DNA from: Ruminococcus sp.
GTDB taxonomy: Bacteria > Bacillota > Clostridia > Oscillospirales > Ruminococcaceae
Reading direction: 5' to 3'
Assembly: GCA_017534595.1 (NCBI GenBank)
Contig: JAFXVY010000126.1
Span: forward strand, 16,020 to 80,019
DNA length: 64,000 nucleotides
The translations under genes were made by a program, and so were the position numbers. Positions within the stretch are counted from its first letter, which is position 1, and each line of letters starts with the position of its first letter. Below the pieces are notes generated by a model. It had not been told where the DNA came from. It saw nothing but the letters and a program-made list of their open reading frames with translations, and did not search any database. Positions 29,045-44,607 of this stretch are shown piece by piece.

Positions 29045-30562
29045 ATGGAAGACGCCTCTGCCGAAAACAGAAAACGCAGGCTTGCCGGGGAGATAATGTC
29101 CCTCTCGGCGGCTCATCTGCTGCTCGACCTGAGATTTATGGCGAGGGCGGTAAACAAGCTGCGTCCCGCGCCGGGCGGGGACAGCTTTGCCTGCAGCGGA
29201 ACTATGCTCCATTACAGCGACGACTATGTCCTCTCGCGGTACAGGCAGGGGGAGCGGCTGCTCGTCCACGATCACCTGCACGCCCTGCTGCACTGCATCT
29301 TCCGGCATTTCAAGCCCGCCTCACATCTCGACCGGGCGGCGTGGAACGCCGCTGCGGATATCGCCGTGGAGTCGGTGATAATCGAGGCTGCGACGGGAGC
29401 CTGCACCGTCGAGCACCTGACCGAGAAGCAGGCGGAGATACGCCGGCTGTCTGCGGATGTGGGCCTGCTGACGGCGGAGCGGCTGTATAAGTACTTCACC
29501 TCCGGCGGCGCGGACGAAGCCCGCCTCGCAAGGCTCTCGGAACTGTTCTCCGCCGACGATCATAAGCATTGGTTCCGTGACCCGAAGCGGGAGTATGAGG
29601 ACGAGGAAAAGTTGGATGTCCTGCCGATAGGTCTGCCCGACGAGAAGGAGGAACCATCCGAGGACAAGCCCGACGATACCTCCTCCGGGGAGGGGGATCA
29701 GGGCGAGCCGAAGAGATCCGGGGAGGACAGACAGCCCCGCCCCGACGGTGAGCCGGAGAACGATCCCTCGCTGGAGGAATGGCTCTCCAACGAACGCGGG
29801 AAGCGTGAGCAGGAGCTTGAACAGCAGTGGCGGGACATCGCCGAGCAGCTTGCCTCCGAGCTTGAAAACTTCCGGAAACAGGCCGGCAGCGAGACCAAGA
29901 ACCTTGTGGCGATGATAAAGGACACCGACAGGGACAGGTGCGACTACGCCGCCTTTCTGCGGCGCTTCGCCGTCACCGGGGAGCAGCTGCGGGTCGATCC
30001 CGACTGCTTTGATGTGAACTTTTACACCTACGGCCTCGGCCTCTACGGCAACGCCGCGCTCATCGAGCCTCTCGAATACCGCGAGACCCGCCTCGTCAGG
30101 GAGTTCGTCGTGGCGATAGACACCTCCGGCTCGGTCAGCGGAGAGACAGTGCGCAGCTTCGTGAAAAAGACCTTCAGCCTGCTGCGCAGCAGCGAGAGCT
30201 TCTTTTCAAAGGTCAATATCTATATCATGCAGTGCGATACCGAGGTCAGGGAGGCGGTGAGGATCACCGACAGCGCCGAGCTTGACCGCTTCATTTCACA
30301 AATGGAGATAAAGGGTCTCGGAGGCACCGACTTCCGCCCCGTGTTTGAATATGTTGACGGGCTGATGAAGTCCGGGGAGCTCAGGGATCTCCGGGGGCTC
30401 GTCTACTTCACCGACGGCTACGGGGAGTTCCCGAAGGAGCCCCCCGCCTATCAGACAGCCTTTGCTTTCCTGCGCAGCGATTTCCCGAACGCCGAGCCTC
30501 CCGGCACGCCGCCGTGGGCGGCAAGGCTCATACTTGAGGAGGATGATCTCAGATATGGATGA
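29045..30562 (+). CDS. DUF2201-type protein: putative metallopeptidase N-domain + vWA-like C-domain
   Basis: HDHLHALLH (HExxH-like with Glu->Asp). Acidic linker. C-terminal vWA with MIDAS start VVAIDTSGSVSG and later YFTDGYG. Confidence 0.75.
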   Translation: MEDASAENRKRRLAGEIMSLSAAHLLLDLRFMARAVNKLRPAPGGDSFACSGTMLHYSDDYVLSRYRQGERLLVHDHLHALLHCIFRHFKPASHLDRAAWNAAADIAVESVIIEAATGACTVEHLTEKQAEIRRLSADVGLLTAERLYKYFTSGGADEARLARLSELFSADDHKHWFRDPKREYEDEEKLDVLPIGLPDEKEEPSEDKPDDTSSGEGDQGEPKRSGEDRQPRPDGEPENDPSLEEWLSNERGKREQELEQQWRDIAEQLASELENFRKQAGSETKNLVAMIKDTDRDRCDYAAFLRRFAVTGEQLRVDPDCFDVNFYTYGLGLYGNAALIEPLEYRETRLVREFVVAIDTSGSVSGETVRSFVKKTFSLLRSSESFFSKVNIYIMQCDTEVREAVRITDSAELDRFISQMEIKGLGGTDFRPVFEYVDGLMKSGELRDLRGLVYFTDGYGEFPKEPPAYQTAFAFLRSDFPNAEPPGTPPWAARLILEEDDLRYG

Positions 30563-32333
30563 AAAATGCTTTGAGACCGATAACGGCATACTGATAAAAT
30601 ACAGCGGCTCCGACGAAGAGGTCAGGATACCCGACGGCATCACCGCAATCGAGGAGTTTGCATTCATAGGCTGCGACAGCATCAGAAAGGTCACTGTACC
30701 CGAGGGGGTGAAGAGCCTCGGGCAGCAGTGCTTCCGCAACTGTGCCTGCCTTGAGGAGGTCTCGCTCCACGAAGGGCTTGAGATCATCGGCAGGTTCGCT
30801 TTCTGCGGCTGCGAGATGCTGCGGAGGATAAACATACCGTCCTCGGTCTGTGAGATCGGCAACTCCGCATTCCGGGGCTGCGATATGATGGAGGACATCG
30901 AGCTTCCTGCGGGGCTGACAAGGCTGGGCGAGAGCGCATTCTCCGATTGCCGGAGCCTGCGCAGCATAGCTGTGCCCGCCGGGATCGGCGTTATCCGCAA
31001 GCGCAGCTTTTCCGACTGCGGCGGCGTCACACAGCTGACCGTCCCCGAGGGCATCACCGAGATCGACGATTACGCCTTTGAGTTCTGCGGCTCGGTAAAA
31101 AGCCTTGTGCTGCCGCAGAGCCTTAAAAAGATAGGCCGCTATGCCTTTCAGAACTGCGCCTCTCTTGCGGAGATCTCCGTTCCCGAAGGGGTCGGGGATA
31201 TAGGCTCCTGCGCCTTCTACAAGACCCCATTTGCCGACAGCGCCCCGGACGGCTATCTCGTCGTGGGCGGGGGAGTGCTGGCGGGCTGCACCGTGACCGG
31301 CGAGGAGGCCGGGGTGCCGGAGGGGGTGCGCGTCATCGCGGAGAACGCCTTTGCCGGCCTTGACGGCCTTAAACGGGTACGCCTGCCCGAAAGCGTTGAG
31401 CGCATCTGCGGCCTGGCATTTGAGAAATGCACCGCTCTTGAGGAGATCAGTCTGCCCGCAGGGCTTAAGGACATCGGCAGCAAAGCTTTTGTGGACTGCG
31501 TCTCGCTGAAAACCCTTGACCTCCCGGACGGCCTTGAACATATCGGCAGCGACGCCTTTTACGGCACCGCCATGCTCGGTGCCGACGGCGGCGAGGTCGT
31601 GATCTACAACGGGAAATATCTGATACGCTGCAGCGTAAGCGCGGTTTCATACGCCGTCCCCGACGGGGTGACGGTCATCGCGGACAGAGCCTTTTCCGGC
31701 TCCGCGGGGCTTGAAAGGGTCAGCTTCCCGCCGAGCCTCGGCTGTATCGGCGGCGGAGCCTTCAAGTGGGTGACGGGTCTGCGGGACGCCGTTATCCCGG
31801 AGACGGTCAGGGTCGTGGGCGAGGAGGCATTTGTCAGCAGTTCTGAGCTGCACGCCGTCCTCCGGCCGGAAACGACGGAGACCGGTGCCGCGGCCTTTGC
31901 GCGGGGAGCACGGCTCACCCTGCTCTGCGGCGAGCGAAGCTTTGATGTCACTCTCACCGAGGATATCCCCGGGGCTTCGCCGCTGATGAGCTTCGCGGCG
32001 CATCCCGATGCGCAGAGCTTCTCGCTCATCGTGGAGACGGAATACTATGTCCCGGCGGCAGCCTGCTTCGCAGACTGCATACCCGAGTGTCTTGAGAGGC
32101 TTCAAGCAAACGCCGCCGACGCGCTTATCTTCGCCGTCGAGCTCGGCGACAGCGCCCTGACCGACAGGCTTATCGCCCTCGGCGTCGGGGACGCCGCCGC
32201 TCTTGACGCTGCCATAGCCTTTGCCATAGACAGCGGCAGGCTCGAGCAGCAGGTTGTGCTCATGCGCCGCAAGAACGAGCTGCTCTCCGGCAGGAGCGCA
32301 GCCAGCGTAGTGGATGACAAGCTTTCGCTTTAA
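30555..32333 (+). CDS. cytoplasmic BspA-type leucine-rich-repeat protein
   Basis: More than a dozen tandem ~23-aa repeats (I.IP.GV..IG..AF..C..L). No signal peptide or TM. ~150-aa non-LRR C-terminal region. Start overlaps the vWA gene stop (ATG at 30555, alternative at 30543). Confidence 0.8.
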   Translation: MDEKCFETDNGILIKYSGSDEEVRIPDGITAIEEFAFIGCDSIRKVTVPEGVKSLGQQCFRNCACLEEVSLHEGLEIIGRFAFCGCEMLRRINIPSSVCEIGNSAFRGCDMMEDIELPAGLTRLGESAFSDCRSLRSIAVPAGIGVIRKRSFSDCGGVTQLTVPEGITEIDDYAFEFCGSVKSLVLPQSLKKIGRYAFQNCASLAEISVPEGVGDIGSCAFYKTPFADSAPDGYLVVGGGVLAGCTVTGEEAGVPEGVRVIAENAFAGLDGLKRVRLPESVERICGLAFEKCTALEEISLPAGLKDIGSKAFVDCVSLKTLDLPDGLEHIGSDAFYGTAMLGADGGEVVIYNGKYLIRCSVSAVSYAVPDGVTVIADRAFSGSAGLERVSFPPSLGCIGGGAFKWVTGLRDAVIPETVRVVGEEAFVSSSELHAVLRPETTETGAAAFARGARLTLLCGERSFDVTLTEDIPGASPLMSFAAHPDAQSFSLIVETEYYVPAAACFADCIPECLERLQANAADALIFAVELGDSALTDRLIALGVGDAAALDAAIAFAIDSGRLEQQVVLMRRKNELLSGRSAASVVDDKLSL

Positions 32334-32360
32334 AATATTCCGACCCGGGGAGGGCTGAAC

Positions 32361-33860
32361 GTGAACATAAAGCAGGCAGGAGAACAGATCAGGTATACCG
32401 TCAGGGCTTACCTTGCCAGAGATGAGGCGGGGAGGTATCTCATACCGTCCTATAAACAGCGCCCGCTGCTGCTGATAGGCCCTCCGGGCATCGGAAAGAC
32501 CGAGATCATGTCGCAGATCGCGTCGGAGCTCGGCATAGGTCTGCTCTCCTATTCCATGACACACCACACCCGCCAGAGCGCAATAGGTCTGCCGATGATA
32601 AAGCAGACCGAGTACCGCGGCGAGAGCTTCGATATCACCGAATACACGATGAGCGAGATACTTGCCTCGGTCTATGAGCTGATGAAGAACACCGGCATGG
32701 AACAGGGGATACTGTTCCTTGACGAGATAAACTGCATCTCCGAGACGCTGATGCCGATAATGCTGCAATTCCTGCAGTACAAGGTCTTCGGCGGGCATAA
32801 GCTGCCGGAGGGCTGGATCGTCGTGACGGCGGGCAATCCGCCCGAGTGCAACCGCAGCGTCCGGGAGTTCGATATCGTCACCTGCGACAGGATGAAGATC
32901 CTCGAGATCGAGCCGGATTTCGAGGTCTGGAAGGAGTACGCGAGAAAGGCGGGCGTACACAGCGCCGTCGTGACCTATCTCGAGATCAAGCCCGGGAACT
33001 TCTACCGCATCGAGAGCACGGCGGGGGAGAAGAAATACATCACCGCCCGCGGCTGGGACGATCTCGGGCGTATGCTGACCGTCTGCGAGAAACTGGGCAT
33101 CCCGGCGGATGCGCAGCTCGTAAGGCAGTATATCCGCATCGACAAGGCCGCCGACGATTTTGCGCTCTACTACGAGCTCTACAACAAATACCGCAGCGAT
33201 TACCGAATAACCGCCATCCTTGCCGGCGAGCGGGACGAGGAGATCTCCCGCAGGGCGAAGGATGCGGCCTTCGACGAGCGCTACTCGCTGCTCGGGCTGC
33301 TGCTCGACGCCGTAAGGCTCGGCACGGCGGAGGTCAGCGACAGGGAAGCGCTGCTCGGGAGGGTACGTGAGCAGCTCTCGGAGATAGGCAGCAAGTGCGC
33401 CGAGGGCGGGTCAGCCGACACGCTTTTGGAGGCAGCGGCGGAGAAGTGCAGAGCCGAGCGTGCAAGGCTCGCGGCAGCGGGAAGCCTCTCCGAGCGGACG
33501 GACAGGCTGCTTTCCGATGAGGCGCAGCTGCTTTCCGGCTTCAGGCTGCCCGCCGCAGAGAGCGGCTTCGACGGCGTCAAAGCGGAGTACGAGAGCCTTC
33601 TGACCGACTTCAAAGCGCAGGTCGGGAGGGTAAAGCAAAGCTATTCAAATATGTTCGGCTTCTGCACAGAGACCTTCGGCGAGGGCAGAGAGCTGCTCAT
33701 ACTCGTCACCGAGCTGGCCGCAGACCCCGTCTGTGCGGCGTTCATAGCCGAGTACGGCTGCGAGGAGTATTACAGATACGACAGCAAGCTGATGTTCTAC
33801 GAGCACCGCCTTGAACTCTTGCAGGAGATAGACGAACTTACCAAAGCCCCCGGGATCTGA
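32361..33860 (+). CDS. MoxR/AAA_5-class AAA+ ATPase
   Basis: Walker A GPPGIGKTE, Walker B ILFLDEIN, TAGNPPE sensor region. ~200-aa helical C-terminal extension. GTG start. Confidence 0.8.
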   Translation: MNIKQAGEQIRYTVRAYLARDEAGRYLIPSYKQRPLLLIGPPGIGKTEIMSQIASELGIGLLSYSMTHHTRQSAIGLPMIKQTEYRGESFDITEYTMSEILASVYELMKNTGMEQGILFLDEINCISETLMPIMLQFLQYKVFGGHKLPEGWIVVTAGNPPECNRSVREFDIVTCDRMKILEIEPDFEVWKEYARKAGVHSAVVTYLEIKPGNFYRIESTAGEKKYITARGWDDLGRMLTVCEKLGIPADAQLVRQYIRIDKAADDFALYYELYNKYRSDYRITAILAGERDEEISRRAKDAAFDERYSLLGLLLDAVRLGTAEVSDREALLGRVREQLSEIGSKCAEGGSADTLLEAAAEKCRAERARLAAAGSLSERTDRLLSDEAQLLSGFRLPAAESGFDGVKAEYESLLTDFKAQVGRVKQSYSNMFGFCTETFGEGRELLILVTELAADPVCAAFIAEYGCEEYYRYDSKLMFYEHRLELLQEIDELTKAPGI

Positions 33861-34047: not shown

Positions 34048-34076
34048 TTGACATATAAGGTCAAAAATGATATAAT
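34048..34076 (+). promoter_or_regulatory. consensus SigA-type promoter of the LRR-kinase-vWA-PP2C operon
   Basis: TTGACA (34048-34053), 17 nt, TATAAT (34071-34076), followed by a ~110-nt GC-rich leader. Confidence 0.65.
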
Positions 34077-34187
34077 TGTACTATATAGGTATGCAGTATC
34101 ATTTCGGCCGCTGATCTGCTGACCGGGCAAGGCTCCGAGAGCTGTCCCGGCGGGTCGGAAGGCCGGTCCAAGATGGGAGAGTTGTGT

Positions 34188-35270
34188 ATGCAGTGCGAGA
34201 ACTGTCACGCCGAGATACCGTTGGGCAAAGCGGTATGCCGAGAGTGCAGAAGCTTGCTTCGGTATAATGTCCGGGATTTCGACAACACCAGAGCTGTACA
34301 AAGGCTGCTGAAAAATGCCCTCAAGGATCAGAAGGAGGAAATAGCCGATGCCCGCCAGCTCATCGCGGTCATCTACGACTACATCCCCGGGTATGAGACT
34401 GAGAGCAGGCTGCTCGCCAAAGCCATAAACGGCGGAGTGCTGGGCGTGCTGATGAGCGGCGGCGATAAGCGGCTGGTCTTCAACGACGCCCGCAAGATAA
34501 TGATAAAAGACCTGATGATGACCAAGAAGGAGGCGGAGTTCGTCCTCGCCGCGCTGGGATATATGCTCGGCTTCGGATACCCCTCGCCGTTCATGGTCGT
34601 TTCGACCGGAGGCTCGTCTCCCGGAGGCGGCGGTACGGCTGCAAAGACAGAAGCGGAAAAGAAGGCAGAGGCTGCCGCGGCGCTTCCGCCGGAGCAGAAG
34701 GTCTTTAAAAAGCTCGACGCCTTCAAGTACAGGCTCTCGAGGAACATCGTGGTCAAGGAGGGCTATACAAAGCTCGACGGCTATTGCTTCGACGGCTTCT
34801 CTTTTGCACGGAGCATAACGCTCCCCTCAACGCTGAGAGTCATCGGAGAGTATGCTTTCTCCGACTGCAAGCATCTTGAGGAGATGACAGTGCCTGAGAA
34901 CGTGAGAAAGCTCGAAAAGGGCGCGTTCAATGCCTGCGTGGCGCTCAGAAAGCTGAAGCTCCCCAAGGGGCTGCTCGATATAGGCGACAATACCTTCCTG
35001 TGCTGCACGTCTCTGACGGCGCTGAGAGTGCCTGATACCGTCAGCAGCATCGGTGAGAACGCCTTTTCGGGGTGCGGAGACCTCAAGCGCCTCGTCATCG
35101 CGCAGCACGTCAAGTTCGTGGACGACAATGCGTTCGCATACTGCCCGCAGCTCACGATCTATTGCTACGAAAATTCCTACATACATAAATACTGTATGCA
35201 GAACAAAATAAAATACGTGACCTCGCCAATGGGAAGCATCCTCCCGGACGAGGCTGAAGGAAAGGATTGA
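34188..35270 (+). CDS. zinc-ribbon + helical domain + BspA-type LRR protein
   Basis: CENC...CREC ribbon at the N-terminus, G/A-rich linker, ~6 BspA-type LRRs at the C-terminus. No signal peptide. ATG at 34188 follows GGGAGAG (in-frame alternative ATG at 34173). Confidence 0.75.
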   Translation: MQCENCHAEIPLGKAVCRECRSLLRYNVRDFDNTRAVQRLLKNALKDQKEEIADARQLIAVIYDYIPGYETESRLLAKAINGGVLGVLMSGGDKRLVFNDARKIMIKDLMMTKKEAEFVLAALGYMLGFGYPSPFMVVSTGGSSPGGGGTAAKTEAEKKAEAAAALPPEQKVFKKLDAFKYRLSRNIVVKEGYTKLDGYCFDGFSFARSITLPSTLRVIGEYAFSDCKHLEEMTVPENVRKLEKGAFNACVALRKLKLPKGLLDIGDNTFLCCTSLTALRVPDTVSSIGENAFSGCGDLKRLVIAQHVKFVDDNAFAYCPQLTIYCYENSYIHKYCMQNKIKYVTSPMGSILPDEAEGKD

Positions 35271-35275
35271 TCCTG

Positions 35276-36625
35276 ATGACTGAGCTTAGCATTGGTCAGG
35301 AAGTAGAAATCGAAAACGGAGGTAAAGCCAAGGTCACCGGCATTATCGGCAGCGGCGGTCAGGGCGTTGTCTATTCCGTAGAGTACAACAGCATGAGCTG
35401 GGCTCTCAAGTGGTACGACATCTCCAAGATGAAAGAGCCTGCGGCTTTCAAGAACAATATCAAGAAGAATATAGAGGACGGCGCTCCGAGCAATAAGTTC
35501 CTCTGGCCGAAATATCTTACCAAGAACCAGCCCGACGGCACCTTCGGTTATCTCATGGAGCTCAAGCCCGACAGCTTCGACTCCTTCGTGGATATCCTCA
35601 ATACCTATAAGCTCAAGGTCGATCCCCTCACGGGCAGAGCCGTAAAGCACCCCGTAAGGTTCACCGACCTCTCTGCAATGGTAACTGCAGCGATCAATAT
35701 ATCCAATGCGTTCAGACAGCTCCACCGTGCAGGAAAGAGCTATCAGGACCTTAACGACGGAGGTTTCTTCGTAAACGTCAACACCGGCGCGATACTCGTC
35801 TGCGACTGCGATAACATCGCTCCCGACGGCTCGAACTTCGGCATCGGCGGCAAGCCCGGATATATGGCTCCCGAGATCGTAAGAGGTCTCGCAAAGCCGG
35901 ACGTTCAGACCGATAAGTATTCTCTGGCGGTTGTGCTCTTCAAGCTGCTGTTCAGAGGCGACCCCATGGAGGGTGAGAAGGTCATCAAGGACGTCTGCCT
36001 CACCGAGGCCGCAGAGCTCAAGCATTACGGCTCTCAGGCAGTGTTCGTATATGACCCCGACAACGATACCAACCGCCCCGTAAGAGGCATTCACGATAAC
36101 GTCATCAAGTTCTGGAGACTCTATCCCGATTATATCAAGTATGCGTTCATTGACTCCTTCACCAAAGGACTTACCGATCCCAACCGCAGACTTATCGAGA
36201 ACGAGTGGCAGAAGATGTTCGTAAGGCTCAGGTATGAGATCATCACCTGCCCCTGCGGCAGACAGAACTTCACCTCGATGTTCGAGGCTGTCGATGACAA
36301 GACCTATAAGTGCCCCAAGTGCGGTACTACATTCGCAACACTCAAGTTCAGCAACAGAGAGCAGCGTATGCCGCTCTACATCGGCTCGAAGATCTATGAG
36401 TGTGAGCTCAAGCCCGAGACCGACGACTTCGCCGCCGTTGCAGGCGAGCTCGTCGAGAACAAGCTCAAGCCCGGAGTTCTGGGTATCAAGAACTGCTCGG
36501 ATGAGACATGGCGCGTAAGAATGCCCGACGGCGTTTATTACGACGTGGCTCCCGGAAAGGGCTGCCCGATCTGGCAGGGTCTCGAGATACAGTTTGAGGA
36601 CAGCAACGTCTCCGCTTGGATCTGA
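35276..36625 (+). CDS. atypical Ser/Thr protein-kinase-like protein with C-terminal zinc ribbon and FHA-like domain
   Basis: GSGGQGVVY glycine loop, WALKW lysine, YQDLNDGG in place of HRDLKPxN, DCD in place of DFG, GYMAPE. Then CPCG...CPKCG, then a beta-rich ~100-aa tail. An alternative TTG at 35267 overlaps the upstream stop. Confidence 0.75.
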   Translation: MTELSIGQEVEIENGGKAKVTGIIGSGGQGVVYSVEYNSMSWALKWYDISKMKEPAAFKNNIKKNIEDGAPSNKFLWPKYLTKNQPDGTFGYLMELKPDSFDSFVDILNTYKLKVDPLTGRAVKHPVRFTDLSAMVTAAINISNAFRQLHRAGKSYQDLNDGGFFVNVNTGAILVCDCDNIAPDGSNFGIGGKPGYMAPEIVRGLAKPDVQTDKYSLAVVLFKLLFRGDPMEGEKVIKDVCLTEAAELKHYGSQAVFVYDPDNDTNRPVRGIHDNVIKFWRLYPDYIKYAFIDSFTKGLTDPNRRLIENEWQKMFVRLRYEIITCPCGRQNFTSMFEAVDDKTYKCPKCGTTFATLKFSNREQRMPLYIGSKIYECELKPETDDFAAVAGELVENKLKPGVLGIKNCSDETWRVRMPDGVYYDVAPGKGCPIWQGLEIQFEDSNVSAWI

Positions 36626-36674
36626 GGCGTTCACAACGATATAATAACGATCTTACGAAAAAGGAGCAAATCAT

Positions 36675-37529
36675 ATGAGCAAGAAAAACAAGCCTGCGAA
36701 CAGCGCACCGAAGCCGCCTGTTCAGGAACAGCAGACAAAACTTCCGGAGCTGCCCGAGGACGATTTCGATATGCTGGATTTCGACGACGATCCGCTGAGC
36801 GCAACGGGCGTTTCCAGAAAGAGCCTCGTTATCTTCTTCCTCATCGACACCTCCGGTTCGATGAAGGGTACCAAGATGGGCGAGCTCAATACCGTAATGG
36901 AGGAGCTCATCCCCGAGATCAGGCGCGTAGGTGAGGCCGATACTGAGGTCAAGATCGCCGTGCTGACCTTCTCGACGGGCGTTAAGTGGATGTATGCAGA
37001 GCCTATCGCTATCGAGGAGTTCGAGTGGCAGAGGCTTACCGCTTCCGGCGTTACCAGCATGGGCGAGGCCTTTAAGGAGCTCTCGATGAGAATGTCGAGA
37101 AACAGCTTCCTCAATTCGCCTTCGCTTTCCTTCGCACCCGTTATCTTCCTGATGACCGACGGCTATCCCTCCGACGACTATAAGGAGGGTCTCGAGGCTC
37201 TGTCCTCCAACAGCTGGTATAAGTTCGGCCTCAAGGCTGCGCTGGGTATCGGAAACGAGGCCAACGACGATATGCTCGCCGAGTTCACCGGCTCGAAGGA
37301 TACCGTTGTTCACGCCTATTCGGGCAATCAGCTCGCACAGATGATCAAGATCGTTGCAGTTACCGCTTCTCAGATCGGAAGCAAGAGTATGACCCTTGCC
37401 GATCAGAACGAGCAGGAGCTCAGCGATGAGGATGTATATGCCTCCAAGCAGAAGATGCTCGGTCAGCAGATACAGGAGCTTGTCAGCAAGAACGAGTCGG
37501 ACGATGTATCGTTCGATTCCGGCTGGTAA
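36675..37529 (+). CDS. vWA-domain protein (TerY-like) with complete MIDAS
   Basis: FFLIDTSGSMKG (DxSxS), SGVTSMG (Thr), FLMTDGYPSD (Asp). RBS AAAGGAG. Confidence 0.85.
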   Translation: MSKKNKPANSAPKPPVQEQQTKLPELPEDDFDMLDFDDDPLSATGVSRKSLVIFFLIDTSGSMKGTKMGELNTVMEELIPEIRRVGEADTEVKIAVLTFSTGVKWMYAEPIAIEEFEWQRLTASGVTSMGEAFKELSMRMSRNSFLNSPSLSFAPVIFLMTDGYPSDDYKEGLEALSSNSWYKFGLKAALGIGNEANDDMLAEFTGSKDTVVHAYSGNQLAQMIKIVAVTASQIGSKSMTLADQNEQELSDEDVYASKQKMLGQQIQELVSKNESDDVSFDSGW

Positions 37530-37577
37530 AGAGACCGCTGCAAATTTAATTTGACCGAGAAGGAGCTGTGAGAGATA

Positions 37578-38477
37578 ATGTTCAACGGTTTCTGTCACTC
37601 TGTTATGGGTGCAAGCCATGAAAAAAGAGGCATAGTGTGTCAGGATGCCTCCGCATTTAAGGTCGGCGAGGGCTTCGCCGTGGCGGTCGTAGCCGACGGT
37701 CACGGAAGCAAAAAGCACTTCAGGAGCAATATAGGCTCAAAGTGTGCCGCCGAGGCTGCGGTGGAAACTATCGAGACATTCTTTGCCGATCCCGATGCGT
37801 TTGACGCAAGCTTCAAGGAGGACCATAAGTGGCTCATCAGGAAGCTTGAAAAATATGTGATCTATCTCTGGAACGAGAAAACTATGGCTCACCTCAAGGA
37901 GAACCCCGTCACCATCGACGAGAAGCATCTCTTTGAGCACAAGGATTTCATAGAGATCCCCGAGTCGTCCTATTACGGCACCACGCTTGTTGTGGCCGTA
38001 GCCGCAAGAGGCTATACCTTCGGCTTCCAGATAGGCGACGGAAGTCTCGTTGCCGTCTTTGAGGACGGCGAGACCTCTCAGATCATTGATTATGAGGAGT
38101 CAAATCCCGCTAACATCACCGCCTCGATGTGCAACGCCATGGCGATCGCTATGTTCGATTCGTTCTATGTAAAGGATAAGAGGCTGCTCTGCTTCTGCAT
38201 CTCTACCGACGGACTTTATACCTCCTTCGGCAGCGATTACGACTTCCTTGACTACCATACCATAATCGCGGGTCAGCTGCCCAATATCGAAGCGTTCCTG
38301 CCTTCGCTGAAAAACAATCTCGTAAAGCGTTCGCATTACGGCACAGAGGACGATATCTCACTCTCGTGCATCTACGATCCCGAGTTGGTCGTTTCGGCTA
38401 ATGAGACGGTCAAGGCCAAGATCCTCGATAACAAGCGAAAGGCTGCCGAGAGGAAGGCAAAGCTGCTCAACAAGTGA
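37578..38477 (+). CDS. PP2C-family protein phosphatase (PP2C_2 type)
   Basis: GASHEKRGIVCQDA, VVADGHGS, QIGDGS, STDGLY metal-binding Asp motifs. Confidence 0.8.
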   Translation: MFNGFCHSVMGASHEKRGIVCQDASAFKVGEGFAVAVVADGHGSKKHFRSNIGSKCAAEAAVETIETFFADPDAFDASFKEDHKWLIRKLEKYVIYLWNEKTMAHLKENPVTIDEKHLFEHKDFIEIPESSYYGTTLVVAVAARGYTFGFQIGDGSLVAVFEDGETSQIIDYEESNPANITASMCNAMAIAMFDSFYVKDKRLLCFCISTDGLYTSFGSDYDFLDYHTIIAGQLPNIEAFLPSLKNNLVKRSHYGTEDDISLSCIYDPELVVSANETVKAKILDNKRKAAERKAKLLNK

Positions 38478-38518
38478 GCGCATTACTGCAAATAAGAATG
38501 ATAAGGCAGGTGTTCTGA

Positions 38519-39247
38519 TTGAACCTCAGTGAACTGTACGAAAAAGCAAAGGAATTCTCAGATAAGATAAGGACTGAAAAGCCCGCATTTATCGACAGAT
38601 ATGCGGCTTTCATCGCAGGCGATAACGACGAGGTGTATCTCGGCGTTTCGGGTCTTGCTCTGAGAGACGGGAAGCTCGTCAATCAGCCGGCGGACGTCTC
38701 TGCGGCGCTCAATATGGCTAATGCAGGCTGCCGCGTAGCGACAGGTCTGGTGATAATCAGTCCCAAGAGCGGCTCGGTGCTCAAGCCTTCCGAGGAGGGT
38801 CTGGCGCTGCTGTTCAAGACCAATGCCAAGAACGACGGCTGCCTCGTTTACCTCTCCGAGACGGATAACCCCACTGTGCTGAAGCTCAGATTCGGCGATA
38901 ATGCCGCCTCGATGATGGACGGCTTCGATTTCGGCGGTGACGACAGCGCACCCGCGCCTTCCGCTTCCGCTGCTGCTCCGGCTGCAAAGCCCGCAGGGGA
39001 AAAGGAAGCCTCGAACGTTATCAGAGGCGTGGGCATCGACGAGAACAACCCCTTCTATGAGGCTCCGAGCGACGTCAAGCCGCCCGAGGAGATCATCGCT
39101 GCCGACAATGCAGCCGCCGCTGCTGCCGCTGCACAGAAAAAGCCCGCCCCCGAGGAGCCCGAGCTTACTCCCGAGGAGCTGCTCGAGCAGGCCAAGAGGC
39201 GCAAGAAGGTCGCAAGATCGAACTTCCTGTTCAGGAGAAAGAAATAA
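38519..39247 (+). CDS. unknown protein: globular N-domain, Ala/Pro-rich linker, strongly basic C-tail
   Basis: TTG start 6 nt after AGGCAGGTG. No motif recognised. C-terminus KRRKKVARSNFLFRRKK. Last gene before the operon terminator. Confidence 0.55.
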   Translation: MNLSELYEKAKEFSDKIRTEKPAFIDRYAAFIAGDNDEVYLGVSGLALRDGKLVNQPADVSAALNMANAGCRVATGLVIISPKSGSVLKPSEEGLALLFKTNAKNDGCLVYLSETDNPTVLKLRFGDNAASMMDGFDFGGDDSAPAPSASAAAPAAKPAGEKEASNVIRGVGIDENNPFYEAPSDVKPPEEIIAADNAAAAAAAAQKKPAPEEPELTPEELLEQAKRRKKVARSNFLFRRKK

Positions 39248-39258
39248 CGTATTAAATT

Positions 39259-39294
39259 ACCGCCGTGCTGTCAGACAGTGCGGCGGTGTTTTTA
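39259..39294 (+). terminator. terminator of the kinase/vWA/PP2C operon
   Basis: Stem ACCGCCG..CTG / CAG..CGGCGGT followed by GTTTTTA. Confidence 0.65.
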
Positions 39295-39299
39295 TGCCC

Positions 39300-39357: not shown

Positions 39358-41388
39358 TTATTCCTCAGACTCCGACTCGGTCTCCGACTCAGTTTCGGAT
39401 TCGGTCTCGGACTCTGTCTCAGACTCGGTCTCGGACTCGTCGGGAGTGCTCTCCTCGGGCTCCTCGGAGGACTCATCGGGCTGGCTCTCGTCGGTGGAAC
39501 CGTCAAGCTTTACCAGAGCCTTCTTGCCCTCTTCCTTCTCGATAACATTCTTGTAGATATCATTTACGTTGTCGTAAACTGACATCTGGATGTAGCTGCC
39601 GAAGTCAACGTTGCCCTCTGCGTCGATGAGGCAGTTGGAAAGCTTCATGCCGAGGTAGATGTCCTGATTCTTGGTAGCGGTCTCATCCTCAACAGTTACC
39701 TCAACGGTAACGGGGATCTTGTAGATGTAGTAGAGCACGGTCTTGTCGTAGTCGGTGCGTGTGCCGTCCTCGAAGCCGTCCTTGGTTACGCTGTAAGCGG
39801 TCTGGAAGGTCGCCTCGCCGAAGCTCTTGGACTTGCCGTTCTCAAATCTTACGTTGCCGATAGACGAGCGGTCAACATAATCGGTCTTGAACTTTTCAAC
39901 CTGCTCTTCGAGCCTCTTGGCTATCGCGTCGATATCCTCCTTGCTTACGGAAGAGGCGGTGATGTAGTGGCCGAAGCTGTCGTCAACGGTGTACTCCTTG
40001 ACATAGTTGCCGTCGGCATCGGGAGTGCCTGCGGGCTTGTAGCCTGCGGACTTGAAGCCGCTGTAAGGCTGGCAGATGACCTTGAAGGTATCGCCTGCCT
40101 TGAGGTAATCCTTTTCGGACTCGATCTTGAAGTATACGTTATCCTTGATAACGCTGTCGCAGTTATCGGTGTTCACGCCTCTGATCTGGAGATAAGGAGA
40201 AGCGCCGGCGGTCTTGAAGGTGATGTCGGCGAATACGTCGATATCCTGAGGCTCGGACAGACCGGAAACGGTAAAGGACTTCTTGGGAGCAGTCTCCTCA
40301 AGGATGTAGGTGGTACCCTTGTAGGTGAAGTAGAGACCCTTGTCGTAGTTGTTGGGATCAAGGTAAGCGTAGCTTTCAAGCTGGCTGGTGTAGAGCGAAG
40401 CGGTGATCTCGATAGTATCGCCGTTCTTTACGTCCCATGCGCTGCCGCTGGACATATAGTACTCAATGAAGTCGTACTTGGAGTTGTTCCTGCTGTACTC
40501 GATCTTGCCCTCGCCGTCCATACCGGTGAAGGAGATCTCAAAGCCGTCCCATACATCGAGCTTGGTGCCCTCTACAAGGCCCTCGACCTCGATCTCAAAC
40601 TCGGTGTTCTCGAGCTTGATGTTGACCTCGCTGAGCTCTTCCTCGTCGTACTCTACCTTAACGGAGATCTTGTCGCCGTTGGAGAGGCCTTCCTTCTTGT
40701 CGAGCTCTGCCTTGAGCTTGTACTCGCCCTTCTTCTTGGCGAGCAGAGCGTCTCTCATATCCTTGGCCTCGTCCTTATCGGAGGCCTTGTCGAATGCCTT
40801 GGTCAGATCCTTGGAGGCGTTTGAGAAATACTTGCTGTAAGACTTCTCGATGACCTCGCCGTTCTCGTCGCGCTCAACATCGTAGGGGTTGGGATCAGCC
40901 TCCTGAGCGTTGAGGTAAGCAACAGCGTTGCCGCTGCCGTTGAGACCGGTGAACTTGAATGCGAACAGATCCTTGGCGTCGATCTTCTGATACTTGGTAA
41001 GGTTCATTATAACGATGATCGCAGCAACGATCACTGCTATGCCCACAAATCCGAGGATGATCGGAACTTTGTGCTTACCGATGGCGGCGGCAATATTCTT
41101 GCCTGCCTGGGAAGCGGGGGTAGCGCCGGCATTGGGCTGGAAACCGTTTACGGCATCCTGCGCGGGAGCGGCGTAATTATTCACAGCGCCCTGGACCGGA
41201 GCGGAAGCGGTAACATCGCTCACTGCCTGATCAACAGCTGCTTCTGCCTGCGTAACAACGGGCTCGGGAGTCGGCTCGGGAACAGGTACGGAAGCCGCAG
41301 CAGCTACGGGAGCGCCGCATTTCCCGCAGAATTTCTCGTTTTCGCCGAGAGGGTTCCCGCAGGCACCACAAAACTTTGCTTGACTCAT
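39358..41388 (-). CDS. double-zinc-ribbon, single-TM protein with large beta-rich ectodomain and acidic (S/T)E-repeat tail
   Basis: FCGACGNPL..FCGKCGAP N-terminus, TM ILGFVGIAVIVAAIIVIM, ~480-aa extracellular part, C-terminal ESETESETESETESETESETESESEE. Confidence 0.75.
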   Translation of the reverse strand: MSQAKFCGACGNPLGENEKFCGKCGAPVAAAASVPVPEPTPEPVVTQAEAAVDQAVSDVTASAPVQGAVNNYAAPAQDAVNGFQPNAGATPASQAGKNIAAAIGKHKVPIILGFVGIAVIVAAIIVIMNLTKYQKIDAKDLFAFKFTGLNGSGNAVAYLNAQEADPNPYDVERDENGEVIEKSYSKYFSNASKDLTKAFDKASDKDEAKDMRDALLAKKKGEYKLKAELDKKEGLSNGDKISVKVEYDEEELSEVNIKLENTEFEIEVEGLVEGTKLDVWDGFEISFTGMDGEGKIEYSRNNSKYDFIEYYMSSGSAWDVKNGDTIEITASLYTSQLESYAYLDPNNYDKGLYFTYKGTTYILEETAPKKSFTVSGLSEPQDIDVFADITFKTAGASPYLQIRGVNTDNCDSVIKDNVYFKIESEKDYLKAGDTFKVICQPYSGFKSAGYKPAGTPDADGNYVKEYTVDDSFGHYITASSVSKEDIDAIAKRLEEQVEKFKTDYVDRSSIGNVRFENGKSKSFGEATFQTAYSVTKDGFEDGTRTDYDKTVLYYIYKIPVTVEVTVEDETATKNQDIYLGMKLSNCLIDAEGNVDFGSYIQMSVYDNVNDIYKNVIEKEEGKKALVKLDGSTDESQPDESSEEPEESTPDESETESETESETESETESETESESEE
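39361..39445 (-). repeat. in-frame hexanucleotide-like (S/T)E codon repeat
   Basis: tcggactc / tcggtctc units repeated about 10 times at the 3' end of the gene. Confidence 0.8.
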
Positions 41389-43283: not shown

Positions 43284-44033
43284 ATGCGTTTTGATATTGC
43301 CACACTTTTTCCCGAGGCTCTCGATTTCTGGCTCTCGCAGAGCGTTATAGGCCGTGCCCGCGCCCGGGGACTCTTTACCGCGGAGTGTCACAACATCCGC
43401 GATTACGCCTTCAACAAGCACCGCCGCGTCGATGACACCCCCTACTCAGAGCGGCAGGGAATGCTTATGCAGTGCGAGCCGATATACCGCTGCTGGCAGG
43501 CAATCTGCGATATGACCCGCTCCCAGCCGCACGTTATCTATATGTCCCCGCAGGGAAAGACCCTTACGCAGCAGCGCTGTGTCGAGCTTGCGGGTATGGA
43601 GCATATAATGATACTGTGCGGGCACTATGAGGGGGTCGATCAGCGGATACTTGACAAGATCGTGGATGAGGAGATCTCGGTGGGGGACTATGTGCTCACC
43701 GGCGGCGAGCTGCCGGCGCTGACGCTCGTTGACAGCGTCGTGAGGCTTCTGGACGGCGTTCTCGCCGAGCCGGACTGCTTCGAGGACGAGAGCCATTTCT
43801 GCGGCCTGCTCGAATACCCTCAGTACACCCGCCCGGAGGTGTGGCAGGGGGAGAGAGTGCCGGAGATACTGCTCTCGGGACACCATGCGAACATACTGAA
43901 ATGGCGTCACGAGCAGGCTTTGCTGACCACTGCGAAAAAGCGTCCCGAAATGCTTGAGGACTATCCGCTGACCGACGAGGATTTGTCTATAATCACTAAC
44001 GGCGTAGGCAATTTTGACAACAAAAAAATCTGA
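43284..44033 (+). CDS. trmD: tRNA (guanine37-N1)-methyltransferase TrmD
   Basis: SPQG, GHYEGVDQR and VGDYVLTGGELPA motifs. Confidence 0.92.
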   Translation: MRFDIATLFPEALDFWLSQSVIGRARARGLFTAECHNIRDYAFNKHRRVDDTPYSERQGMLMQCEPIYRCWQAICDMTRSQPHVIYMSPQGKTLTQQRCVELAGMEHIMILCGHYEGVDQRILDKIVDEEISVGDYVLTGGELPALTLVDSVVRLLDGVLAEPDCFEDESHFCGLLEYPQYTRPEVWQGERVPEILLSGHHANILKWRHEQALLTTAKKRPEMLEDYPLTDEDLSIITNGVGNFDNKKI

Positions 44034-44592: not shown

Positions 44593-44607
44593 GCTTGAGA
44601 TATTAGC

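What the first reader, a model, noticed from the sequence alone, without database searches (positions are those of the whole stretch)
34048..39294. Five-gene operon: TerY-P-like kinase/vWA/PP2C triad extended by a Zn-ribbon-LRR protein and an unknown basic-tailed protein
A consensus promoter (TTGACA-17-TATAAT) with a GC-rich ~110-nt leader, and a hairpin+T-run terminator, bracket five tightly spaced same-strand genes.

Genes 2-4 form a recognisable trio:
- a Ser/Thr-kinase-like protein
- a vWA protein with a complete MIDAS site (DTSGS/T/D)
- a PP2C_2-type phosphatase

This composition matches the 'TerY-P triad' that comparative genomics of Ter systems defined (Anantharaman, Iyer and Aravind). 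As far as I recall it was later listed among experimentally supported anti-phage systems (TerY-P, Gao et al. 2020).

The triad does not explain three things:
- gene 1: C4 zinc ribbon + helical domain + BspA-type LRRs, with no signal peptide, so a cytoplasmic LRR
- gene 5: 242 aa, no recognisable motif, Ala/Pro linker, KRRKKVARSNFLFRRKK tail
- the kinase's own C-terminal zinc ribbon plus FHA-like beta domain

A cytoplasmic LRR next to a phospho-switch (kinase/PP2C/FHA-like) and a MIDAS adaptor has the logic of a sensor-transducer-effector conflict system. I do not know of this five-gene combination having been described.
Basis: partly seen in the sequence, partly recalled or inferred. Interest (0 to 1): 0.75.

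Follow-up and report, generated by a model that had tools for sequence, protein, structure and literature searches.

The report
Ruminococcus five-gene TerY-P-like kinase operon
This is a real five-gene operon: a known kinase/vWA/phosphatase signalling trio (TerY-P type) permanently joined to a cytoplasmic leucine-rich-repeat protein and a degenerate deaminase-like protein, inherited vertically and tightly conserved across Ruminococcus, so it looks more like a fixed core signalling module than a mobile anti-phage island.

Summary
Five same-strand ORFs (34188-39247) lie between a perfect TTGACA-17-TATAAT promoter and a 14-bp hairpin terminator.

Genes 2-4 are a Hanks-type kinase with a C-terminal Zn ribbon, a vWA protein with a complete MIDAS site, and a PP2C_2 phosphatase. 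Their plasmid relatives are canonical ter-linked TerY-P triads, so the TerY-P reading is supported. The kinase's Zn ribbon and β-domain are standard for that family.

Genes 1 and 5 are strictly linked to the triad. In all 80 species-level genome loci fetched (Ruminococcus albus, R. flavefaciens and many MAGs), the order g1-kinase-vWA-PP2C-g5 is invariant wherever the contig allows.

Gene 5 does have a recognisable feature. Its N-domain has a cytidine/blasticidin-S deaminase fold whose Zn ligands are lost here. Eight of 74 orthologues, in three clades, keep H[AS]E…PCxxC. A linker with conserved short motifs and a polybasic tail follow.

The operon sits among housekeeping genes and co-diverges with its neighbours. 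All five genes are under strong purifying selection (ω 0.01-0.09). No relative appears in viral contigs.

This argues against a patchy, mobile defence island. It favours a domesticated, genus-wide phospho-switch. An immune role is not excluded.

Verdict: new variant of a known kind; moderate interest.

The parts
34048..34076 (+). Sigma-70/SigA-type promoter TTGACA-17-TATAAT with extended-10 TG
   Evidence: 12/12 match. At least 11/12 matches are conserved upstream of gene 1 in 68 of 79 orthologous loci.
34077..34187 (+). 5' leader, 111 nt, GC 0.58, ending in a GGAGAG ribosome-binding site
   Evidence: Sequence read. Not conserved among orthologues apart from the RBS. No Rfam family matches.
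34188..35270 (+). Gene 1 (360 aa; the ORF could also start at 34173). N-terminal C4 zinc ribbon (C3, C6, C17, C20), an unknown helical domain of about 110 aa, an Ala/Gly/Pro linker, and C-terminal BspA-type LRR_5 repeats (nt 34770-35153). Cytoplasmic.
   Evidence: LRR_5 1.9e-33. Zn-ribbon Cys conserved in at least 81/83 orthologues. No TM segment or signal peptide. Always the first gene of the cassette. Median identity 33% (N-domain) and 53% (LRR), ω 0.06 and 0.02. No TerY_C match.
35276..36625 (+). Gene 2 (449 aa; ORF from 35267). Hanks-type Ser/Thr kinase, C4 zinc ribbon (nt about 36248-36325), and a C-terminal all-β domain of about 100 aa (nt about 36329-36622).
   Evidence: Pkinase 2.7e-9. 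Fold matches CDK2, TAK1, PknI, PknA and PknB. GSGGQG, K45, D158, D177/D179, APE and the 4 Zn-ribbon Cys are 100% conserved in 82 orthologues, as is a Gly at the catalytic-loop Asn position. 39% identical over its full length to the Prevotella plasmid triad kinase. ω 0.01. C-terminal region pLDDT 84-92.
36675..37529 (+). Gene 3 (284 aa). TerY-like vWA protein with a complete MIDAS site. It has a disordered N-terminus ending in a near-invariant acidic motif φDFDDD(D)PL. There is no TerY-C domain.
   Evidence: VWA 1.1e-8. MIDAS residues 100% conserved in 79 orthologues. tblastn finds TerY of ter plasmids. Profile hits Moraxella TerY at 3e-18. Acidic motif present in 74/79. Most conserved gene of the operon: median 83% identity, ω 0.03.
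37578..38477 (+). Gene 4 (299 aa). PP2C_2-type Ser/Thr phosphatase with all metal-binding aspartates intact.
   Evidence: PP2C_2 2.3e-33. D23, D40-G-H-G, G-D154-G, D211-G and D258-D259 are 100% conserved in 77 orthologues. ω 0.04. Its divergence tracks the chromosomal neighbour (Spearman 0.90).
38519..39247 (+). Gene 5 (242 aa). The N-terminal domain (aa 1-125, nt 38519-38893) has a cytidine/blasticidin-S-deaminase fold with the Zn ligands lost (PAD…PSEEG). A disordered linker (nt 38894-39163) carries conserved short motifs: G[FY]D, NPF, PP. A conserved Ser/Thr217 lies in [ML][ST][KP]E[ED][ML]L. The tail KRRKKVARSNFLFRRKK is polybasic.
   Evidence: AF2 pLDDT about 90 for aa 1-110. The Foldseek top 50 PDB hits are all CDA or BSD, E 1.7e-6, TMt 0.72. 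Eight of 74 orthologues in 3 clades keep H[AS]E…PCxxC. NPF in 72-75/75, S/T217 in 70/70, tail Lys/Asn conserved. Always the last gene of the cassette. Family of only 223 representatives among 1.84 billion. ω 0.07-0.09.
39258..39298 (+). Intrinsic terminator: 14-bp stem, 3-nt loop, T-run. It lies between the operon and a convergent gene.
   Evidence: The downstream gene 39358-41388 is on the minus strand.

Best explanation
The locus is a single transcription unit. It encodes a TerY-P-type phospho-switch: a Hanks kinase with Zn ribbon and β-domain, a TerY-like vWA protein with a MIDAS site, and a PP2C. In the Ruminococcus lineage this triad has become permanently coupled to two lineage-specific soluble partners. 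It is inherited vertically as part of the core chromosome.

Shown:
- All enzymatic and ligand-binding residues are invariant.
- The five-gene order is invariant.
- The strong promoter is conserved.
- All genes are under purifying selection.

Inferred mechanism:
- The kinase and the PP2C set the phosphorylation state of an output protein, and the vWA MIDAS site binds a metal plus an acidic ligand.
- Candidate acidic ligands are the vWA protein's own near-invariant φDFDDDD motif, acting as a pseudo-ligand, and gene 5's G[FY]D[DE] motif.
- Gene 1 acts as a cytoplasmic adaptor or sensor. Its Zn-ribbon and helical part would dock on the kinase; the two genes are 5 nt apart. Its LRR surface would recruit a protein ligand.
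- Gene 5 is the scaffold or substrate. A deaminase-fold core that has mostly lost catalysis would oligomerise. The linker motifs (NPF, G[FY]D, PP) would dock on the other subunits.
- Phosphorylation of the conserved Ser/Thr217 next to the +10 polybasic tail would switch that tail's binding to an anionic partner. That partner could be nucleic acid, an acidic membrane, or the acidic vWA N-terminus.

Given the genus-wide, syntenic and highly constrained distribution, the most likely role is a constitutively expressed stress or physiology signalling module. A mobile anti-phage cassette is less likely.
For: Operon anatomy.

Domain calls and invariant catalytic, MIDAS and Zn-ribbon residues.

Homology to canonical TerY-P triads. 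Published definition: PMC11090510 and PMC4978471.

Invariant five-gene order in 80 species-level loci, including cultured R. albus and R. flavefaciens; the kinase signature occurs in 385 stretches of a collection with one genome per species.

Core-genome context (hisS, aspS, rimM, trmD).

The same neighbour pair is kept in most loci.

Co-divergence with the neighbour (Spearman 0.90). The vWA (83%) and kinase (77%) are more conserved than the adjacent hydrogenase-like gene (69%).

ω 0.01-0.09 for every gene and sub-domain, like the neighbours at 0.05-0.08.

Promoter conserved at 11/12 or better in 68 of 79 loci.

No relatives in IMG/VR. Only two weak phage hits. Gene 5 is absent from plasmids and phages.

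Gene 5 fold, motifs and repeated loss of the Zn site.
Against: - No experiment or interaction prediction was possible. Every protein-protein contact, the phospho-site and the role of the MIDAS ligand are inference.
- The invariant Gly at the catalytic-loop Asn position could mean an atypical or weak kinase.
- TerY-P relatives elsewhere sit in mobile, defence-like contexts, and a stand-alone TerY-P module is reported to protect against T7-like phages (PMC7699616). An immune function therefore remains plausible.
- The fastest-evolving parts are exactly genes 1 (N-domain, 33% identity) and 5 (28%).
- The intact deaminase site in three clades suggests an enzymatic effector in at least some species.
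- Gene-wide dN/dS cannot detect site-specific positive selection.
Confidence: 0.5

Rival explanations
1. It is an anti-phage or conflict system: a TerY-P-type defence module extended by a cytoplasmic LRR sensor (gene 1) and a deaminase-derived effector or adaptor (gene 5). It happens to be fixed in the genus. Infection would be sensed through the LRR or vWA, relayed by the kinase and PP2C, and executed through gene 5 or an unidentified target.
For: - The triad is homologous to TerY-P.
- Stand-alone TerY-P is reported as anti-phage (PMC7699616; PMC11090510).
- The closest non-Ruminococcus relative is plasmid-borne, next to an HTH, TerY-C and an exonuclease.
- Genes 1 (N-domain) and 5 are the fastest-evolving components.
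- Eight orthologues keep an intact deaminase site.
- An accessory DUF2201-LRR-MoxR module is inserted beside the operon in some genomes.
- A TIR-domain gene lies 4 kb downstream in L001.
Against: - Genus-wide presence in conserved synteny within housekeeping genes.
- Vertical co-divergence with the neighbour.
- ω 0.01-0.09 with no elevated signal in the LRR (0.02) or in gene 5.
- Absent from viral contigs, and gene 5 absent from plasmids and phages.
- The effector candidate has lost its Zn ligands in most species, including this one, yet stays under purifying selection.
- The perfect consensus constitutive promoter would be unusual for a toxic abortive-infection effector.
Confidence: 0.27
2. 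The operon works with its conserved neighbours, a DivIVA-like coiled-coil protein (26166-27197) and a sensory [FeFe]-hydrogenase-like protein (27244-28962). It would couple a redox or H2 signal to Ser/Thr phosphorylation of a cell-division or polarity factor.
For: - The pair stays adjacent to the cassette in most of 80 loci, in three different relative orientations.
- The hydrogenase-like protein has degenerate H-cluster motifs and a long coiled-coil C-terminus, which looks sensor-like.
- The 343-aa protein begins with a DivIVA-like motif. From general knowledge, DivIVA-family proteins are classic Hanks-kinase substrates; this was not tested here.
Against: - The operon has its own conserved promoter and terminator.
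- Orientation relative to the pair is not fixed, and in-place inversions explain the adjacency without functional selection.
- A three-gene insertion separates them in the window.
- The DivIVA and sensor assignments rest on reading motifs. Pfam gave no DivIVA hit at 1e-3.
Confidence: 0.12
3. The five genes are merely adjacent, and the apparent operon and trio are coincidental.
For: None beyond the generic nature of the Pkinase, VWA and LRR domains.
Against: Identical order and strand in all 80 loci over a divergence at which gene 5 falls to 22-59% identity. Conserved promoter. Spacers of 5-49 nt.
Confidence: 0.01

Closest known systems
TerY-P (TerY-phosphorylation) triad of Ter stress-response and restriction-associated islands. 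Source: Anantharaman, Iyer and Aravind 2012, as summarised in PMC11090510 and PMC4978471. Example: Moraxella osloensis pNP7-1 (L090).
   Same: - vWA with MIDAS, PP2C_2 phosphatase, and a Hanks-type kinase followed by a Zn ribbon and a β-rich C-terminal domain.
- The same Pfam signature, with a partial Pkinase match over the same model region.
- Reciprocal sequence similarity for all three proteins.
   Different: - Gene order here is kinase-vWA-PP2C; the canonical order is vWA-PP2C-kinase.
- No TerY-C domain.
- No Ter genes (TerD/TerX) and no DNA-processing partners.
- Core-chromosomal, vertically inherited and genus-wide, where the canonical triad is island- or plasmid-borne.
- Two extra obligate genes (ZnR-LRR and pseudo-deaminase) that the canonical triads lack.
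- Catalytic-loop Asn replaced by an invariant Gly.
Prevotella sp. E2-28 plasmid pE2-28 cluster (L087): TerY-C protein, kinase, vWA, PP2C.
   Same: - Closest relative found outside Ruminococcus: kinase 39% identical over its full length, vWA 41%, PP2C 31%.
- Same kinase-vWA-PP2C order.
- A small metal-binding protein occupies the gene 1 position.
- Same habitat (sheep gut/rumen).
   Different: - Plasmid-borne.
- The upstream gene is a TerY-C protein, not a ZnR-LRR protein.
- The downstream genes are unrelated hypotheticals, an FGE-like protein and an exonuclease. There is no gene 5 homologue.
- Its kinase keeps the catalytic-loop Asn.
Stand-alone anti-phage TerY-P system of Gao et al. 2020, as described in PMC7699616 and PMC11090510.
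   Same: Three-component vWA, PP2C and Ser/Thr kinase composition.
   Different: - That kinase is described as fused to an OB fold rather than a Zn ribbon (PMC11090510).
- It is a three-gene defence-island system.
- Sequence-model membership could not be tested, because PADLOC has no power here.
- The window's operon has five genes and behaves like core genome.
Homotetrameric cytidine deaminase / blasticidin-S deaminase family (e.g. PDB 4f3w, 2z3g, 1jtk), compared with gene 5.
   Same: - Fold match: TMt up to 0.73, E 1.7e-6.
- Eight orthologues retain the H/C-A-E and PCxxC signature in the expected register.
   Different: - No sequence-level similarity.
- The window copy has PAD…PSEEG, so no Zn ligands remain.
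- It carries a long disordered linker with docking motifs and a polybasic tail.
- It is a small orphan family of 223 representatives, restricted to this operon.
Housekeeping PASTA-kinase/phosphatase pair Stk1(PrkC)/Stp1 of Firmicutes.
   Same: A Hanks kinase with a PP2C phosphatase in one operon, conserved in the core genome.
   Different: - NCBIfam scores are far below cutoffs: 17 against 450 and 20 against 230.
- No TM segment or PASTA domains.
- vWA, LRR and deaminase-fold partners are present.

Membership tests
TerY-P triad (Anantharaman et al. 2012; PMC11090510) | TerY-like vWA protein with a MIDAS site | tested here: met
   VWA 1.1e-8. MIDAS 100% conserved. tblastn hits TerY / 'TerY-C metal binding domain-containing protein' on 2306 plasmids. 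Profile hits Moraxella TerY1-3 at about 3e-18.
TerY-P triad (Anantharaman et al. 2012; PMC11090510) | Adjacent PP2C-type phosphatase | tested here: met
   PP2C_2 2.3e-33. Catalytic Asp residues invariant. Weak but specific profile hit to the Moraxella triad PP2C, 4.7e-5. 31% identity to the Prevotella triad PP2C.
TerY-P triad (Anantharaman et al. 2012; PMC11090510) | Ser/Thr kinase fused C-terminally to a zinc ribbon | tested here: met
   Pkinase 2.7e-9. CxC…CxxC 100% conserved. The alignment to the Moraxella triad kinase runs through the Zn ribbon, 6e-16. 1607 plasmid hits. Definition read.
TerY-P triad (Anantharaman et al. 2012; PMC11090510) | TerY-C metal-binding domain on the vWA protein or a neighbour (frequent, not strictly defining) | tested here: not met
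   No PF15616 hit in the gene 1 N-terminus at E up to 1, or in the vWA protein at E up to 0.01. The controls do hit: Prevotella 4.6e-7, Moraxella 1.4e-50.
TerY-P triad (Anantharaman et al. 2012; PMC11090510) | Association with Ter genes, restriction or DNA-processing modules, or mobile islands | tested here: not met
   The window's neighbours are hisS, aspS, rimM, trmD and a hydrogenase-like gene. The same context holds in 80 loci.
Anti-phage TerY-P (Gao et al. 2020) | Matches to the system's protein models (PADLOC / DefenseFinder) | tested here: inconclusive
   The vWA and PP2C give no PADLOC hit even at E up to 10. Three control triads, including a canonical ter-linked one, also give none. 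DefenseFinder models were not available.
Anti-phage TerY-P (Gao et al. 2020) | Kinase fused to a C-terminal OB fold (per PMC11090510) | tested here: inconclusive
   The kinase has a Zn ribbon and an all-β domain of about 100 aa with pLDDT 84-92. Kinase hits dominated the fold search, so the domain could not be classified. There is no FHA or OB sequence signal.
Anti-phage TerY-P (Gao et al. 2020) | Protection against phage | not testable with these tools
   Requires an experiment.
Stk1/Stp1 (PrkC/PrpC) housekeeping pair | NCBIfam equivalog scores; PASTA and TM architecture | tested here: not met
   17.3 bits against a 450 cutoff and 20 against 230. No TM segment. No PASTA domain.
Cytidine/blasticidin-S deaminase (gene 5 N-domain) | CDA α/β fold | tested here: met
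   AF2 pLDDT about 90. The Foldseek top 50 hits are all CDA or BSD, E 1.7e-6, TMt 0.72.
Cytidine/blasticidin-S deaminase (gene 5 N-domain) | Zn/catalytic signature [HC]AE … PCxxC | tested here: not met
   The window has P57-A58-D59 … P90-S91-E-E-G94. Eight of 74 orthologues do keep H[AS]E…PCxxC.
   No Pfam FHA hit at E up to 1. hhalign against a small FHA alignment gives probability 0.2%. The fold could not be tested.

The most novel reading that the evidence does not exclude
A genus-fixed, five-component immune-like signalling machine. An ancestrally mobile TerY-P triad captured a cytoplasmic LRR receptor and a Zn-deaminase effector. Under this reading the LRR senses a cytoplasmic, possibly phage- or stress-derived, protein. 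The kinase/PP2C/vWA switch licenses the deaminase-fold protein. In most lineages the effector's catalysis was replaced by a phospho-regulated scaffold function. This would be a bacterial analogue of LRR-kinase innate-immune signalling, embedded in the core genome of keystone rumen cellulolytic bacteria.
Probability: 0.22. Interest if true: 0.78.

Novelty: new variant of a known kind. Interest (0 to 1): 0.5.

Why it matters
TerY-P triads are known almost entirely from comparative genomics and one defence screen. Their mechanism and targets are unknown.

This operon offers a version that is constitutively promoted, present in cultured and genetically approachable R. albus and R. flavefaciens, and fixed with two candidate partner or substrate proteins.

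- Gene 5 supplies a concrete, testable candidate output: a conserved Ser/Thr next to a polybasic tail, docking motifs, and a deaminase core caught in evolutionary transition from enzyme to scaffold.
- Gene 1 supplies a rare cytoplasmic bacterial LRR tied to a kinase.

The locus therefore makes testable what a TerY-P switch phosphorylates and what its vWA MIDAS site binds.

It also shows that a module usually filed under 'defence' can be a strongly constrained core component of an ecologically important gut and rumen genus.

Tried and rejected
1. PADLOC as a membership test. The vWA, the PP2C, gene 1 and gene 5 gave no hits. The Prevotella, Deinococcus and canonical Moraxella triads also gave none, so this negative carries no weight.
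2. Homologue search with gene 1's N-terminal 186 aa returned nothing. Clear orthologues exist in every locus, so this was a failure of the word-index search.
3. Sequence-level link of gene 5 to deaminases. The PDB profile search and hhalign against B. subtilis Cdd were not significant. Only the fold and the orthologues with an intact motif show the relationship.
4. FHA assignment for the kinase C-terminus. There is no Pfam hit and no hhalign signal. Kinase hits swamped the fold search of the whole kinase model.
5. Gene 5's tail as an amphipathic membrane-targeting helix: rejected. μH is 0.13, below the shuffle mean of 0.32. It is simply polybasic.
6. Riboswitch or conserved regulatory leader: rejected.
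7. Phage or plasmid carriage. No relatives of the kinase were found in IMG/VR. There were two weak phage hits at 25-29%. Gene 5 had no hit in plasmids or phages.
8. The founding paper (Anantharaman 2012) could not be retrieved. Its definitions were taken second-hand from PMC11090510, PMC4978471 and PMC7699616.
9. The B. subtilis spoIIE-yabS-yabT adjacency (PP2C, vWA, Hanks kinase) is recalled from memory as a possible Firmicute analogue. The literature search was uninformative and no sequences were at hand, so it was not tested.
10. Diversifying selection on genes 1 and 5: gene-wide ω is 0.02-0.09, so no such signal. Site models were not run.

Full report
**1. Observation**

- gene 1: 34173/34188-35270
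- gene 2: 35267/35276-36625
- gene 3: 36675-37529
- gene 4: 37578-38477
- gene 5: 38519-39247

Spacers are 5, 49, 48 and 41 nt. The consensus scan finds a 12/12 TTGACA-17-TATAAT promoter with an extended-10 TG at 34048-34076. It also finds a terminator at 39258-39288 with a 14-bp stem, 8 GC pairs and a T-run. The next gene (39358-41388) is convergent.

The likely true start codons are:
- 34188 (MQCENC, with GGAGAG 6 nt upstream)
- 35276 (MTEL…, as in all orthologues)

Pfam confirms LRR_5 (1.9e-33), Pkinase (2.7e-9), VWA (1.1e-8) and PP2C_2 (2.3e-33). Gene 5 has no significant family. None of the five proteins has a TM segment or signal-peptide-like stretch, whereas two neighbouring membrane proteins score clearly.

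**2. The operon is real and conserved**

Gene 5 homologues at 35-44% identity all sit at the end of the same LRR-kinase-vWA-PP2C-gene 5 array.

A scan of a collection with one genome per species used two kinase signature peptides, [WY]ALKWYD[IV] and GKSYQDLN. It found 385 relatives. The best 80 are Ruminococcus or Oscillospiraceae genomes, including cultured R. albus 8 and KH2T6 and at least eight R. flavefaciens strains.

I ran phmmer with the window proteins against six-frame ORFs of all loci. Every locus with enough contig has the order: gene 1 (N-domain plus LRR), kinase, vWA, PP2C, gene 5, all on one strand.

The promoter is phylogenetically conserved. Sixty-eight of 79 loci have at least 11/12 matches to the consensus with a 17-nt spacer upstream of gene 1.

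The leader is not conserved apart from the RBS. It is AT-rich in most species and has no Rfam match. The 'GC-rich leader' is therefore a local feature (111 nt, GC 0.58).

**3. Genes 2-4 are a TerY-P-type triad**

The literature defines TerY-P as a TerY-like vWA protein, a PP2C, and a Ser/Thr kinase fused C-terminally to a zinc ribbon (PMC11090510; PMC4978471).

Evidence from plasmids:
- tblastn of the window vWA finds 2306 plasmids. Most are Klebsiella, E. coli or Salmonella ter plasmids, where the hit is TerY / 'TerY-C metal binding domain-containing protein'.
- The kinase finds 1607 plasmids of the same kind.
- A canonical example, Moraxella pNP7-1, reads TerY-TerX(TerD)-TerY-TerY(+TerY-C)-PP2C-kinase.
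- HMMs built from the Ruminococcus orthologues hit its kinase at 6e-16 (through the Zn ribbon), its TerY paralogues at about 3e-18, and its PP2C at 4.7e-5.
- Its Pfam signature is the same as the window's, apart from TerY_C.

The closest relative outside Ruminococcus is on a sheep-derived Prevotella plasmid. Identities are kinase 39% over its full length, vWA 41% and PP2C 31%. The kinase-vWA-PP2C order is the same, and a small TerY-C protein sits in the gene 1 position.

The Moraxella, Prevotella and Deinococcus kinases all carry a Zn ribbon followed by a β-rich tail of about 100 aa. The whole architecture of the window kinase is therefore canonical.

The 'FHA-like' label is unsupported by sequence. 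The fold search of the full model returned only Hanks kinases.

PADLOC gave no vWA or PP2C hits. Three control triads behave the same way, so that test has no power.

The proteins are not Stk1/Stp1 equivalogs.

**4. State of the enzymes**

Residues were scored across 77-82 orthologues.
- The kinase Gly-loop, K45, D158, D177/D179, APE and all four Zn-ribbon cysteines are 100% conserved.
- The vWA MIDAS residues are 100% conserved.
- Every PP2C metal-binding Asp is 100% conserved.

One oddity is equally invariant. The catalytic loop reads D-L-N-D-G-G, with Gly where Hanks kinases have Asn. The Prevotella, Deinococcus and Moraxella triad kinases do have Asn there.

The vWA protein has a near-invariant acidic motif, φDFDDD(D)PL, immediately before its first β-strand (74/79).

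**5. Gene 5 is a deaminase-fold protein**

- AlphaFold2 with the family alignment gives pLDDT of about 90 for residues 1-110. Residues 125-215 are disordered, and there is a C-terminal helix.
- The top 50 Foldseek PDB hits are all homotetrameric cytidine or blasticidin-S deaminases (E 1.7e-6, target TM 0.72).
- There is no sequence-level signal.
- Eight of 74 orthologues carry the canonical H[AS]E…PCxxC signature at exactly the positions where the window has PAD…PSEEG. This validates both the homology and the register.
- On a kinase+vWA+PP2C tree, the intact sites fall in three separate clades, and a fourth lineage keeps PCxxC only. The ancestor was therefore most likely an active Zn-deaminase, and catalysis was lost repeatedly.
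- The protein nevertheless stays under purifying selection (ω 0.07).

The linker carries conserved short motifs:
- G[FY]D
- NPF (72-75 of 75)
- PP
- [ML][ST][KP]E[ED][ML]L, with Ser/Thr in 70/70

The tail is polybasic (+10 net charge over 17 residues). The tail is not amphipathic.

The family is tiny: 223 representatives among 1.84 billion proteins. It is absent from the plasmid and phage collections.

**6. Gene 1**

Gene 1 has four parts:
- a C4 Zn ribbon, with Cys conserved in at least 81/83 orthologues
- a helical domain of about 110 aa and unknown fold; this is the fastest-evolving folded part (33% median identity, ω 0.06)
- a low-complexity linker
- LRR_5 repeats (53% identity, ω 0.02)

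It is not a TerY-C domain by Pfam. The dedicated homologue search failed for technical reasons.

**7. Evolutionary behaviour**

The window's neighbours are housekeeping genes (hisS, aspS, rimM, trmD). An unknown DivIVA-like protein and a hydrogenase-like protein stay next to the cassette in most loci.

| Protein | Median identity to the window |
|---|---|
| vWA | 83% |
| kinase | 77% |
| hydrogenase-like neighbour | 69% |
| PP2C | 59% |
| LRR | 53% |
| gene 1 N-domain | 33% |
| gene 5 | 28% |

PP2C divergence correlates with that of the neighbour (Spearman 0.90).

I computed pairwise Nei-Gojobori dN/dS on 14 close pairs.

| Gene or region | ω |
|---|---|
| kinase | 0.01 |
| LRR | 0.02 |
| vWA | 0.03 |
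| PP2C | 0.04 |
| gene 1 N-domain | 0.06 |
| gene 5 (domain and linker) | 0.07-0.09 |
| neighbours | 0.05-0.08 |

No relative occurs in IMG/VR viral contigs. This is the pattern of a vertically inherited, strongly constrained core operon. It is not the pattern of a patchy, mobile defence island.

**8. Interpretation**

The best-supported reading is a domesticated TerY-P-type phospho-switch with two obligate lineage-specific partners.

The mechanism is inferred, not shown:
- The kinase and PP2C set the phospho-state of an output.
- The MIDAS site binds metal plus an acidic ligand. Candidates are the vWA protein's own DFDDDD motif or gene 5's G[FY]D[DE].
- Gene 1 is a cytoplasmic LRR adaptor or sensor.
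- Gene 5 is the scaffold or substrate. Its conserved Ser/Thr next to the polybasic tail is the likely switch.

An immune role remains possible (about 0.25), given the family's history and the ancestral deaminase. Coupling to the neighbouring sensor-like hydrogenase and DivIVA-like pair is a weaker alternative.

No paper describing this operon was found, though the searchable library is limited.

**9. Verdict**

The TerY-P triad and the conserved five-gene linkage hold. The 'unexplained' kinase extras, the 'no motif' description of gene 5, and the conflict-system framing do not hold or are weakened.
- Novelty: a new variant of a known kind.
- Interest is moderate. The locus turns the poorly understood TerY-P switch into a tractable five-protein system in cultured rumen bacteria, with specific residues and motifs to mutate.

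Noticed in passing
window 29045-33860 (+): A three-gene accessory module lies directly upstream of the operon. It comprises a DUF2201 protein (metallopeptidase-like plus VWA-like), a 623-aa BspA-type LRR protein, and an AAA_5/MoxR-like ATPase. It is present only in the window and in a few close relatives (L001, L008, L013, L015, L019, partly L016), always inserted between the hydrogenase-like gene and gene 1. Its LRRs cross-hit gene 1's LRRs.
   Followed up: partly
window 27244-28962 (+): A 572-aa [FeFe]-hydrogenase-like protein with 2x[4Fe-4S], Fe_hyd_lg_C and PF04060. Its H-cluster motifs are degenerate (TQPCAAIV, LTPCIAKKNE, SCEFGCNVGP), and it has a C-terminal coiled coil of about 150 aa. 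It looks like a sensory protein and not a catalytic hydrogenase. It stays adjacent to the cassette in most of 80 loci, in three orientations.
   Followed up: partly
window 26166-27197 (+): A 343-aa protein with no Pfam hit. Its N-terminus (FIKTVVFGGYDKADVDKKLEFL) looks like a DivIVA-domain motif, followed by a long coiled coil and an Ala/Pro/Lys tail. It is always paired with the hydrogenase-like gene.
   Followed up: no
window 35741-35773 (kinase residues 156-166 counted from 35276, YQDLNDGGFFV): The catalytic-loop Asn of Hanks kinases (HRDxxxxN) is replaced by a Gly that is invariant in 82 Ruminococcus orthologues. The Prevotella, Deinococcus and Moraxella TerY-P kinases keep Asn. This suggests atypical metal coordination or altered activity.
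   Followed up: partly
window 36675-36850 (vWA N-terminus): The disordered, variable N-terminus ends in a near-invariant acidic motif φDFDDD(D)PL[GS]AT just before β1 of the vWA domain (74/79 orthologues). It resembles gene 5's G[FY]D[DE] motif. It may be a MIDAS pseudo-ligand or the partner of gene 5's polybasic tail.
   Followed up: partly
window 39358-41388 (-): A convergent 676-aa protein with an N-terminal zinc ribbon, one TM segment, a large extracytoplasmic region and a C-terminal (SETE)n acidic repeat. The operon's terminator hairpin lies between the two convergent genes.
   Followed up: no
L087 (Prevotella sp. E2-28 plasmid pE2-28, locus coordinates 5069-14678): A rumen Bacteroidota plasmid carries the closest non-Ruminococcus triad (31-41% identity). 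Its order is HTH, TerY-C protein, kinase, vWA, PP2C. Three hypothetical proteins, an FGE-like protein and a 3'-5' exonuclease follow. This suggests cross-phylum exchange of this triad subtype within the rumen.
   Followed up: partly
L001 14491-17892 and 13444-14181: In one related genome, a DDE transposase and a 1133-aa TIR-domain plus β-propeller protein lie about 4 kb downstream of the cassette. This is the only defence-like neighbour seen in the loci I inspected.
   Followed up: no
phage records MT835511.1 (32605-33579) and MT836238.1 (7036-7986): Two unannotated human-faecal phage contigs encode distant relatives of the kinase (25-29% identity, E 3e-16 and 7e-11).
   Followed up: no
window 12001-13000, 18001-19000, 44001-45000, 48001-49000, 57001-58000: One-kb stretches with a clearly lower GC (0.42-0.48) than the window average of about 0.55. 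I did not examine them.
   Followed up: no
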